Positions 55,139 to 56,695 of a DNA stretch of 64,000 bases are shown one piece after another. The notes beneath the pieces were generated by a model. It saw only the letters and a list, made by a program, of their open reading frames with translations. It was not told where the DNA came from and ran no database searches. Origin of the DNA: Coprobacillus sp. (GTDB lineage: Bacteria > Bacillota_I > Bacilli_A > Erysipelotrichales > Coprobacillaceae). Numbering within the stretch: the first letter of the stretch is position 1; each line of letters opens with the position of its first letter. The translations under genes and the position numbers were made by a program. The stretch spans positions 87,155 through 151,154 of the forward strand of contig JAVWHX010000001.1 in assembly GCA_036639875.1 (NCBI GenBank). The letters run 5' to 3'.

Positions 55139-56695
55139 TTACTTATAGTATGCATTTGTGATTGTCTTACTCATCACTTGCATATCTTGCACTTTTACAA
55201 CAATCTTATAATCTTTTACTGTACTTAAGCTGTCTTTCAAACTTCCCCATGCAATATATAAATTGTCTCCAGCATCACTTGTTATAGAGTCAACATGATA
55301 TTCACATGAGACAGTACTCTGTAACTTATCATTTAATACAATTGATACGGTTCCCGTTTTATTGACATAATACTTATCTAAACGTACTTGTACATAAAGA
55401 CCATCTTCACTTTGTCTTAATACTGTTAAGTAATTATTTGGTACAATTGTTGATGTTTTGATAACATCATCTACATATTTAATTTCAGCACCATCCTCAG
55501 ATATGATATGACCAATAACAACCTGATATTGTAACCCTGGTTGTAAGCCTGTAAACACATGGTTTTTATCATACAAATTTAAGTTTTGTGATTTGAGTGG
55601 TTTATCTTTTGTGATATCAGCATCTCCTGCAAATAATGACATATATATAATTCCATATTGTCCAAATGGATCACTAGCATAATAAGATACATCTAATGCT
55701 GTACTCGTCTTAGAAACACCACGAAGCATAATAGATTTTACAGTATCAACTGCTTCGCCACTACTTCCATTACCACCAGTACCACCACTACCTCCAGAAC
55801 CACCATTTCCTGCATTACCGCCGGTACCTCCAGTACCGCCGTTTCCAGCACTACCACCGATACCACCTAAACCACCATTACCACCAACACCACCGTTACC
55901 ACCGAGTCCACCAGTTCCTCCACTTCCACCATTGCTTCCATTTCCACCAGTTCCCCCAGTTCCTCCACTTCCGCCTTTGATGTCTAATTTAACTTCATCA
56001 GGTTGCTGTTCTTCGTCAATTGATTTATATGTGAGAGGATCAAAGCTATTTGTTGATCCCATAACTTTTTTAAGTTCGATAGTTTTACCTGAAAAAACAA
56101 GTTTTTCATTTGCAACATCTAAACTCATCTCTCCCCCATTTAATGTAATTGGCTTAGTGGTTTTTACATTCATTTTCTCATTGCTTAATAATGCATTACC
56201 TGCTTTATCCATAACGATATAAACAAATCTTTCTGCTTTGCATAATTCTTCTTTATCAGCAATATTTGGTGATACCATGAGATACTTTCTATCTGCAAGT
56301 TTATAAAAAGCATCTTTTCTTATATCAATATCTGATTGAACATCCTTTAATCTCAATGCAGTATTATCATTTAGCAGTTGATAACCACCACCAAAAATCA
56401 TAATATTGTTACCATCAAAACATATAGTATGAGTTCCTAAATTTGTCTTCTTTCCCGCTTCATCTATAAACTGATAATCTCCCGACCAATCCTTTTTTAC
56501 AATTCCACTTAATTGTGTCTGATAAGGATTATTATCTTCATTATATAAAAGTGTATCTTTTGCAATTGCATACTCTGCAGGTTGCTGTCCCAAAGATTTA
56601 TATAAAATAAATCCTAAGAGACCCGCAACTAACAACACAAATACAATGAAAACATTCATGCTTAATTTTGCTTTTTTTGTCAATTTTCTTTTCAT
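55139..56695 (-). CDS. bitopic envelope protein: juxtamembrane domain, (G-G-X)n spacer, FN3-like domains
   Basis: 518 aa. N-terminal anchor [30 protein letters not shown] motif, 73-aa Gly-rich run (aa 241-313), then beta-rich modules with [13 protein letters not shown]. Confidence 0.8.
55757..55975 (-). repeat. tandem G-G-X triplet coding repeat (about 24 units)
   Basis: [73 protein letters not shown]. On the plus strand this appears as an ACC/TCC/GCC-rich tract. Confidence 0.9.

What the first reader, a model, noticed from the sequence alone, without database searches (positions are those of the whole stretch)
55757..55975. G-G-X repeat tract (about 24 units) reminiscent of PGRS/polyglycine-II-forming sequences
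The 73-aa run [73 protein letters not shown] has two glycines in almost every triplet. This differs from the neighbouring gene's G-X-Y tract. Comparable G-G-X periodicity occurs in mycobacterial PE_PGRS proteins and in polyglycine-II helix bundles (snow-flea antifreeze protein and some phage receptor-binding tips). At the DNA level it is a locally GC-rich, quasi-repetitive tract in an AT-rich genome, so it is a likely hotspot for in-frame expansion and contraction.
Basis: partly seen in the sequence, partly recalled or inferred. Interest (0 to 1): 0.6.

Follow-up and report, generated by a model that had tools for sequence, protein, structure and literature searches.

The report
GGX stalk matched to collagen-like partner
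A 73-residue Gly-Gly-X repeat in a membrane-anchored protein is real and under selection, and across about 25 species its length follows, almost triplet for triplet, the collagen-like repeat of the giant surface protein encoded next to it, so the two most likely run side by side as one stalk of an ATP-synthase-like surface machine and are not a loose linker or a PE_PGRS-type fold.

Summary
The tract is real: 24 in-register GGX triplets, aa 241-313 of a 518-aa protein ("S"). S consists of a TM anchor, a beta-rich domain, the tract and two FN3 domains. It is the only such tract in the 2.35-Mb genome.

In the clade that has it, both glycines are kept at 98% over 2263 triplets. X is almost never Gly or Pro, and the register is unbroken for 8-70 triplets.

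The main result is length matching. The tract length tracks the collagen-like G-X-Y tract of the upstream 1972-aa protein. That protein's N-domain is homologous to S's (hhalign 93%). Over 25 loci r = 0.998 and slope = 1.01, with S minus giant = -1 to +2 triplets across 8-68 triplets. Independent contrasts give p = 8e-8. I read the tract as one chain of a length-matched, probably co-assembled PPII/PGII-type stalk.

Caveats:
- AF2 monomers give low confidence for both tracts.
- Most family members, all sampled ones from very AT-rich loci, have non-periodic spacers at this position.
- In one species S varies from 8 to 20 triplets while the partner stays at 18.
- PE_PGRS membership is rejected.

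The scan had already noted the same length matching on another genome (e1-4147229). I saw that note only after obtaining my own result.

The parts
55757..55975 (-). (GGX)24 tract, aa 241-313 of protein S
   Evidence: only such tract in the genome
55139..56695 (-). ORF of protein S (518 aa). It has an N-terminal membrane anchor. Its stop overlaps the start of the c-subunit-like gene by 17 nt.
   Evidence: AF2 model
56588..56677 (-). predicted transmembrane helix of S (aa 7-36)
   Evidence: AF2 helix 7-36
56075..56575 (-). beta-rich juxtamembrane domain of S (aa 41-207). It contains the YKLADRKY motif and is homologous to the N-domain of the giant.
   Evidence: pLDDT >94; hhalign A2 vs A3 probability 93%, E = 2.9e-7
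55142..55738 (-). two tandem FN3-like domains of S (aa 320-518)
   Evidence: AF2; Foldseek hits to fibronectin FN3 pairs, E about 1e-6
56708..62626 (-). upstream giant surface protein (1972 aa) with the same plan: TM helix, homologous beta-domain, triplet tract, then FN3-like domains
61610..61816 (-). collagen-like (G-X-Y)23 tract of the giant (aa 271-339), the length-matched partner of the GGX tract
   Evidence: giant orthologues hit Pfam PF01391 Collagen
54874..55155 (-). c-subunit-like gene, the first gene of the F1-like ATPase cassette downstream of S
   Evidence: Pfam PF00137; the same gene order is kept in every related locus inspected except L012, whose contig lacks the cassette

Best explanation
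The GGX tract is the stalk segment of a small membrane-anchored subunit (S). S is a paralogue of the giant surface protein encoded directly upstream. Both proteins have a TM anchor, a homologous beta-rich juxtamembrane domain, an amphipathic strand, a glycine-triplet tract and then FN3-type domains.

In the clade that includes this genome, the two tracts are kept at the same number of triplets: (GGX)n in S and collagen-like (GXY)n in the giant. I infer that they lie side by side in register as extended left-handed three-residue (PPII/PGII-type) helices. They would be clamped at both ends by the paired flanking domains. Together they would form one rod of about 20 nm here (72 residues at about 0.29-0.31 nm each). 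That rod would hold the FN3 arrays at a fixed distance from the membrane-embedded F1-like ATPase complex.

Shown: the periodicity, its conservation, the paralogy, the conserved gene order and the length coupling.

Inferred: physical co-assembly, helix geometry, stoichiometry and the role as a rigid strut or shaft.

Both glycines are conserved, and Gly at X/Y is reported to destabilise a canonical collagen helix. A non-canonical PGII-like packing, with the GGX chain contacting two neighbours, therefore seems more likely than a textbook heterotrimer.
For: - Conservation: 99 distinct tracts with 2263 triplets have Gly at 98% of position 1 and 98% of position 2. X is T/N/S/D/A/I-rich, with G 0.4% and P 0.3%. 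Each tract keeps a single register for 8-48 triplets, and up to 70 in L121.
- No recent DNA duplication in the window's tract, so the pattern is held at the protein level. The tract is a 55% GC island in a 29% GC window.
- Length coupling: tract lengths in triplets, S then giant, are 25/23 (window), 15/13, 19/18, 20/18, 40/39, 43/42, 28/27, 32/31, 9/8, 70/68 and so on. Over 25 loci Pearson r = 0.998, slope 1.01, and S minus giant = -1 to +2.
- Phylogenetically independent contrasts give r = 0.84, slope 1.01, p = 7.6e-8, with 17 of 19 contrasts in the same direction.
- Two close relatives (N-domains 94.5% and 97.5% identical) differ by exactly one triplet in both genes.
- The N-domains of S and the giant are homologous. 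Both tracts are preceded by a similar strand..EVKLDIK|GG in S and ..VPKFDIKNNN|G in the giant.
- Giant orthologues hit Pfam Collagen.
- The order giant - S - c-like - ATPase genes is conserved in every related locus inspected except L012, whose contig lacks the cassette.
Against: - AF2 monomer gives pLDDT 35-45 for the tract. The same holds for the giant's collagen-like tract (about 28), so this result does not discriminate.
- No multimer prediction was possible.
- In one species S alleles of 8-20 triplets coexist with an unchanged 18-triplet giant tract, so mismatch is at least tolerated in the short term.
- Most of the wider family has non-periodic spacers here: 101 of 120 N-domain-seeded hits and 36 of 57 species-level loci.
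- The collagen literature treats GGXGG as a triple-helix interruption (PMC11923368).
- Tests for position-specific hydrophobic or charge coupling between the two tracts were inconclusive.
Confidence: 0.55

Rival explanations
1. The tract is a flexible, intrinsically disordered glycine-rich tether. The two spacers have similar lengths only because both proteins must reach the same distance from the membrane. The GGX pattern is a by-product of growth in 9-nt units.
For: - Low AF2 confidence.
- Orthologues with the same architecture use N/S/T/G-rich non-periodic spacers, and those lengths also correlate with the giant's spacer (r = 0.74; sequences).
- Strain-level length polymorphism occurs without any change in the partner.
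- Gly at X/Y disfavours a triple helix.
Against: - A disordered tether needs neither 98% Gly at two fixed positions nor exclusion of Gly and Pro from the third.
- It does not need an unbroken register over up to 70 triplets.
- It does not need a match to within 1-2 triplets over an eight-fold length range.
- The window's units show no DNA similarity beyond what the amino-acid pattern imposes, so recent slippage does not explain the periodicity.
Confidence: 0.25
2. The tract is an intramolecular polyglycine-II bundle or sandwich, as in snow-flea antifreeze protein or the PGRS domains of mycobacterial PE_PGRS proteins.
For: The GGX composition and the X-residue spectrum (T, N, S, D, A, I) resemble PGRS. 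PGII sandwiches tolerate large in-frame deletions and insertions (PMC10216338), in line with the length polymorphism seen here.
Against: - AF2 with a 60-sequence alignment predicts no such fold (pLDDT 35-45), whereas it is reported to model PGRS sandwiches.
- PGRS helices are 3-5 triplets long and separated by turn loops with hydrophobic residues. Here the register runs on unbroken.
- A folded-back bundle gives no reason for the one-to-one length match with the neighbour's G-X-Y tract.
- There is no PE domain and no GRPLI motif.
Confidence: 0.07
3. The tract is primarily a contingency locus. It would be a hypermutable repeat whose expansions and contractions generate surface variation, for example to escape phage or immune attack or to tune reach.
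For: Within one species, alleles of 8, 9, 10, 11, 12, 18 and 19 triplets occur among strains with 90-98.5% identical flanks. Short alleles occur in at least two flank-identity groups, about 90% and 96-98.5% identical to P0027. One deletion is bounded by a 15-nt direct repeat.
Against: - All changes are in frame, so there is no on/off switching.
- The window's tract has diversified codons and no repeat longer than 17 nt.
- Its 99%-identical relative has the same length.
- Across species the length is tied to the partner's length rather than drifting freely.
Confidence: 0.1

Closest known systems
Bacterial collagen-like surface proteins (Streptococcus Scl1/Scl2, Bacillus BclA; Pfam PF01391) and heterotrimeric collagens such as C1q or type I collagen
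   Same: Gly-triplet periodicity next to a globular domain that could nucleate assembly. The partner giant is itself collagen-like, and its orthologues hit PF01391. Paralogous chains with tracts of equal length are typical of heterotrimeric collagens (established knowledge).
   Different: S has Gly at two of three positions and does not hit PF01391. GGXGG is regarded as a helix interruption (PMC11923368). The known bacterial collagens are, to my knowledge, homotrimers. I found no described (GGX)n chain paired with a (GXY)n chain.
Polyglycine-II assemblies: snow-flea antifreeze protein and the PGRS 'PGII sandwich' of PE_PGRS proteins (PMC10216338)
   Same: GGX-rich sequence with Gly on the packing faces and a small or polar X pointing outward. 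Both tolerate in-frame length changes.
   Different: Those are intramolecular stacks of short (3-5 triplet) antiparallel helices joined by turns. Here the register is unbroken for 24 triplets (up to 70 in relatives), AF2 predicts no fold, and the length is tied to a second protein.
Mycoplasma Type 3 (and Type 2) F1-like X0 ATPases with their surface-exposed partner protein MMCAP2_0577 (bioRxiv 10.64898/2025.12.04.692339)
   Same: An extra F1-like ATPase operon encodes a membrane protein with a Gly/Ser-rich low-complexity region (G48-S96, 60% G/S), and that protein co-purifies with the ATPase. The alpha and beta subunits here score on the MMOB1660/1670 and MSC_0618/0619 models, below their cut-offs.
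   Different: [quoted passage not shown] It has no reported triplet periodicity and no collagen-like partner. The operon here keeps a c-like subunit and is flanked by giant FN3-rich proteins.
GGX motifs of spider silks (3-1 helix, elastic matrix)
   Same: (GGX)n is thought to adopt a PGII-like three-fold helix and to contribute mechanical properties (own knowledge; reviews listed).
   Different: Silk GGX blocks are short and interspersed with poly-Ala or GPGXX. They act in a bulk fibre, not as a single membrane-anchored stalk.

Membership tests
PE_PGRS (mycobacterial) | N-terminal alpha-helical PE domain of about 110 aa | tested here: not met
   No PE hit in Pfam or NCBIfam. AF2 shows a TM helix followed by a beta-rich domain.
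PE_PGRS (mycobacterial) | GRPLI linker motif between the PE and PGRS domains (PMC10216338) | tested here: not met
   The motif is absent from the 518-aa sequence.
PE_PGRS (mycobacterial) | PGII sandwich of many short helices (3-5 triplets) joined by turn loops and modelled by AlphaFold2 | tested here: not met
   Unbroken register of 24 triplets. AF2 pLDDT is 35-45 with no regular structure.
Collagen-like triple-helix repeat (PF01391) | Gly at every third residue over many consecutive triplets | tested here: inconclusive
   Across the family each Gly position is 98% Gly. In the window neither register is perfect: AGN occurs twice in one register, and GSN and GSS occur in the other.
Collagen-like triple-helix repeat (PF01391) | Match to the family profile, with non-Gly residues at X and Y | tested here: not met
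   S has no PF01391 hit. Gly occupies X or Y in nearly every triplet, and GGXGG is classed as an interruption (PMC11923368). The neighbouring giant's orthologues do hit PF01391.
Collagen-like triple-helix repeat (PF01391) | Assembly of three chains with tracts of equal length | not testable with these tools
   Only monomer prediction was available. Equal length with the partner chain is shown, but association is not.
Snow-flea-AFP-type PGII bundle | Compact antiparallel bundle of PGII helices with turns and caps | tested here: inconclusive
   AF2 monomer gives no confident fold. The sequence has no turn or cap signals, but glycine can turn anywhere.
Generic disordered Gly-rich linker | Low complexity without positional constraint | tested here: not met
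   There is a strict two-position Gly constraint, Gly and Pro are excluded at X, and the length is coupled to the partner.

The most novel reading that the evidence does not exclude
GGX chains of S and G-X-Y chains of the giant form a previously undescribed hetero-oligomeric PPII/PGII rod. One possible geometry is a collagen-like core with GGX chains packed against it through their two glycine faces. The rod's length is set genetically in both genes. It would serve as the rigid, envelope-crossing strut or shaft that couples an F1-like rotary ATPase to arrays of FN3 domains on the surface of gut Bacillota.
Probability: 0.3. Interest if true: 0.85.

Novelty: new variant of a known kind. Interest (0 to 1): 0.65.

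Why it matters
If the two tracts really pair, this would be a natural case of a (GGX)n chain assembling in register with a (GXY)n collagen-like chain. Collagen peptide chemistry predicts that combination to be unfavourable, so it would extend the known repertoire of PPII/PGII assemblies.

It would also supply a design principle: a rod whose length is written twice in the genome and kept equal.

The tract also gives a handle on an uncharacterised machine found in many gut and rumen Bacillota. The stalk is a clean place to test subunit contacts, for example by mismatching the lengths. Its length, about 7 to 60 nm across species, says how far the FN3 arrays are held from the membrane.

If the tracts do not pair, the result is still a strong example of co-evolving low-complexity regions, which are usually dismissed as unconstrained.

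Tried and rejected
- The first homologue search returned GGX tracts in all 120 listed hits. That search is seeded by shared 5-residue words, so it favours GGX-containing proteins. I repeated it on the N-domain alone: 19 of 120 hits are strict GGX.
- The search for related loci with the N-domain alignment failed because no conserved stretch was available. I replaced it with a back-translated YKLADRKY pattern scan (57 family loci among 88 hits) and with genome handles.
- Idea: periodic rods occur in walled lineages and floppy spacers in wall-less lineages. Rejected, because SEDS (FtsW/RodA) genes are present in all 33 genomes of both kinds. The sampled non-periodic spacers instead all lie in loci with G+C of 0.30 or less, against 0.29-0.58 for periodic ones. 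This split is confounded with phylogeny.
- Position-specific hydrophobic co-occurrence and charge complementarity between the two tracts were inconclusive. The giants' tracts are strongly acidic (net -1 to -26), while the GGX tracts are near neutral.
- Recent tandem duplication in the window's tract was not found.
- Assembly collapse as the cause of the short alleles is unlikely. The longest internal repeat is 16 nt, shorter than the k-mers assemblers normally use (my own knowledge).
- L026 could not be assessed because its upstream giant is N-terminally truncated in that scaffold.
- AF2 monomer confidence does not discriminate. The giant's collagen-like tract scores equally low.

Full report
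OBSERVATION

The minus strand of window 55757-55975 encodes the quoted 73 residues, aa 241-313 of a 518-aa ORF at 55139..56695. I call this protein S. The residues form 24 triplets in one register: 20 GGX, two AGN, one GSN and one GSS. Tandem Repeats Finder reports arrays of period 9, 18 and 36 at 68-74% match. The tract has 55% G+C in a window of 29%. A search for six or more GGN-GGN-NNN units, allowing up to 2 mismatches, found matches in the whole 2.35-Mb assembly only inside this tract.

THE PROTEIN AND ITS SETTING

AlphaFold2 with a 60-sequence alignment gives these parts:
- a transmembrane helix, aa 7-36;
- a beta-rich domain, aa 41-207, with pLDDT above 94;
- a low-confidence stretch, aa 234-318, with pLDDT 35-45, which contains the tract;
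- two beta-sandwich domains, aa 320-518, which Foldseek matches to fibronectin FN3 pairs at E about 1e-6.

The gene sits 12 nt downstream of a 1972-aa protein at 56708..62626. That protein carries an uninterrupted (G-X-Y)23 tract. The stop of S overlaps by 17 nt the start of a c-subunit-like gene. After it come b-like, alpha, gamma, beta and epsilon-like genes, a small membrane protein, two further anchored proteins and a 3091-aa protein. Other reports of this scan have dealt with the ATPase cassette. I took that as context only. The order giant - S - c-like - ATPase genes recurs in every related locus I inspected except L012, whose contig lacks the cassette.

IS THE PERIODICITY SELECTED?

In the first homologue search all 120 listed proteins carried a GGX tract starting near residue 240. 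Across 99 distinct tracts (2263 triplets), position 1 is Gly in 98% and position 2 is Gly in 98%. X is T 22%, N 14%, S 13%, D 11%, A 11% and I 8%, with only 0.4% G and 0.3% P. Each tract keeps a single register for 8-48 triplets.

That search is seeded by shared 5-residue words, so it favours GGX proteins. I therefore repeated it with the N-domain alone. Only 19 of those 120 hits have a strict GGX tract. The others carry N/S/T-rich or irregular G-[STN] spacers at the same place. A species-level sample from a back-translated YKLADRKY scan gave 21 strict GGX among 57 family loci. GGX is therefore one clade's version of a spacer that the whole family has.

Within that clade the pattern is held at the protein level. 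In the window's tract the 9-nt units are 67% identical to one another, exactly the value after shuffling the units. Adjacent units are no more alike than distant ones (P = 0.18). The longest internal repeat is 17 nt. So there is no recent slippage to account for the register. The tract also persists as a GC island in an AT-rich genome.

THE LENGTH COUPLING

I extracted the giant and S from 39 further loci. I measured both tracts with the same automatic rule. In the periodic clade the counts, S then giant, are:
- 25/23 (window), 15/13, 19/18, 20/18, 21/19;
- 22/21, 21/20, 28/27, 29/28, 32/31;
- 26/25, 19/17, 20/18, 19/20;
- 22/20 twice, 21/20 twice;
- 40/39 twice, 43/42, 9/8, 9/9 twice;
- 70/68.

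For the two 9/9 loci the automatic rule gives 13 for S, because it runs on into the preceding linker. I used the strict GGX count of 9.

Over 25 loci Pearson r is 0.998 and the slope is 1.01, with S minus giant between -1 and +2 triplets. No permutation out of 100,000 came as close. Relatives are not independent, so I built a tree from the S flanks and computed independent contrasts. These give r = 0.84, slope 1.01 and p = 7.6e-8, with 17 of 19 informative contrasts in the same direction. Two close relatives, with N-domains 94.5% and 97.5% identical, differ by exactly one triplet in both genes.

In the non-periodic loci the two spacers also correlate in length (r = 0.74, rho = 0.82). They mirror each other in composition and even in motifs, for example TIINGNVNG and GNGQG.

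PARALOGY

A profile-profile comparison of the S N-domains (A2) with the giants' N-domains (A3) gives 93% probability and E = 2.9e-7 over 151 columns. YKLADRKY aligns with WKISDxKY. Both tracts are preceded by a similar amphipathic strand: EVKLDIK|GG in S and VPKFDIKNNN|G in the giant. An AF2 model of the giant's first 480 residues shows the same plan of TM helix, beta-domain, tract and beta-sandwich. The GGX tract is thus the positional counterpart of the collagen-like tract in a paralogous chain.

WHAT THE STRUCTURE PREDICTIONS DO AND DO NOT SAY

The GGX tract is low-confidence in the monomer model. So is the giant's G-X-Y tract, at pLDDT about 28, even though orthologues of that tract hit Pfam Collagen. 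Low confidence therefore does not separate disorder from a helix that forms only in an oligomer. It does count against an intramolecular PGII sandwich, which AF2 is reported to model for PGRS domains (PMC10216338). No multimer prediction was available.

INTERPRETATION

A floppy tether would not need two fixed glycines per triplet, exclusion of Gly and Pro at X, an unbroken register, or a match to the neighbour within one or two triplets over an eight-fold length range. The simplest account is that the two tracts are extended three-residue helices lying side by side in register between paired flanking domains. They would form a rod of about 20 nm in this organism. That length follows from established values of 0.29-0.31 nm rise per residue for collagen, PPII and PGII helices.

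A canonical collagen heterotrimer is doubtful for two reasons. Gly at X/Y is reported to disrupt the helix (PMC11923368). A triple helix would also not need the second glycine. A PGII-like packing, in which the GGX chain touches two neighbours through its two glycine faces, fits better. The geometry and stoichiometry remain unknown. The giants' tracts are strongly acidic (net -1 to -26) and the GGX tracts are near neutral. This would ease packing, but the point is inference.

COUNTER-EVIDENCE

In one species S alleles of 8-20 triplets occur among strains whose flanks are 90-98.5% identical. The giant keeps 18 triplets in all four strains examined. One deletion lies between 15-nt direct repeats, and the longest internal repeat in that tract (16 nt) is too short for assembly collapse. 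Mismatch is thus tolerated at least transiently.

The sampled non-periodic spacers come from loci with G+C of 0.30 or less. All 33 genomes tested, periodic and not, have SEDS cell-wall genes. A walled versus wall-less explanation therefore fails.

COMPARISON WITH KNOWN SYSTEMS

The tract is not a PE_PGRS member: it has no PE domain, no GRPLI motif and no turn-interrupted helices. It is not a profile-level collagen, since it has no PF01391 hit.

It works most like a chain of a heteromeric collagen-like stalk. It has the chemistry of polyglycine-II assemblies.

The nearest system-level analogue is the mycoplasma Type 3 F1-like X0 ATPase. Its surface partner MMCAP2_0577 carries a Gly/Ser-rich region and co-purifies with the ATPase (bioRxiv 10.64898/2025.12.04.692339). 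No periodicity or collagen-like partner is reported there.

My literature searches found no description of a (GGX)n tract length-matched to a (GXY)n tract. I saw it only after my own analysis, and the two agree.

VERDICT

- Observation: confirmed.
- First reading: partly supported.
- Best explanation: a selected stalk segment, length-coupled to the neighbour and probably co-assembled with it. I give 0.55 for co-assembly. The coupling itself is well supported.
- Novelty: new variant of a known kind.
- Interest: 0.65.

Noticed in passing
L016:14852-15625, L017:14852-15625, L018:14774-15547, L141:11332-12105, L142:9765-10538, L143:11525-12298: In one species group the operon carries an extra ParA/MinD-type (CbiA, AAA_31) ATPase gene between the gamma-like and beta-like genes. 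The window has no such gene.
   Followed up: no
L141:384-6553: In one strain the giant is split into 414-aa and 1613-aa ORFs by a frameshift just after its first FN3-like domain. This is either a pseudogene or an error in the contig.
   Followed up: partly
window 47644-49113 (spacer about 48000-48400): A third N-terminally anchored protein (489 aa) has a spacer of about 140 aa that is acidic, Pro-rich and non-periodic. The spacer forms a second GC-rich island (46% G+C). Its length is not matched to the other two spacers.
   Followed up: no
window 55932-56222 (+): The 96-aa Pro-rich ORF on the opposite strand ([12 protein letters not shown]...) is the mirror image of the GGN codons. It is not a gene.
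   Followed up: yes
L136, L137, L013 (S and giant spacers): In lineages without triplet periodicity, the spacers of S and of the giant still share composition and short motifs within a genome: TIINGNVNG in L136 and L137, and GNGQG in L013. This hints at co-evolution or gene conversion between the two genes.
   Followed up: partly
L119, L120, L126, L127 (S orthologues of 560-700 aa): Some S orthologues carry an additional C-terminal acidic tail of 50-136 residues, rich in Pro, Glu and Thr. The window's S protein lacks it.
   Followed up: no
window 55139-55155: The stop of S overlaps the start of the c-subunit-like gene by 17 nt. The giant's stop lies 12 nt upstream of the S start. This suggests coupled translation of giant, S and the c-like subunit.
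   Followed up: no
loci L010, L012-L014, L131-L140 versus the periodic loci: The sampled non-periodic spacers all lie in loci with 26-30% G+C, while periodic GGX/GXY tracts lie in loci with 29-58% G+C. The window, at 29% G+C, sits at the AT-rich edge of the periodic group.
   Followed up: partly
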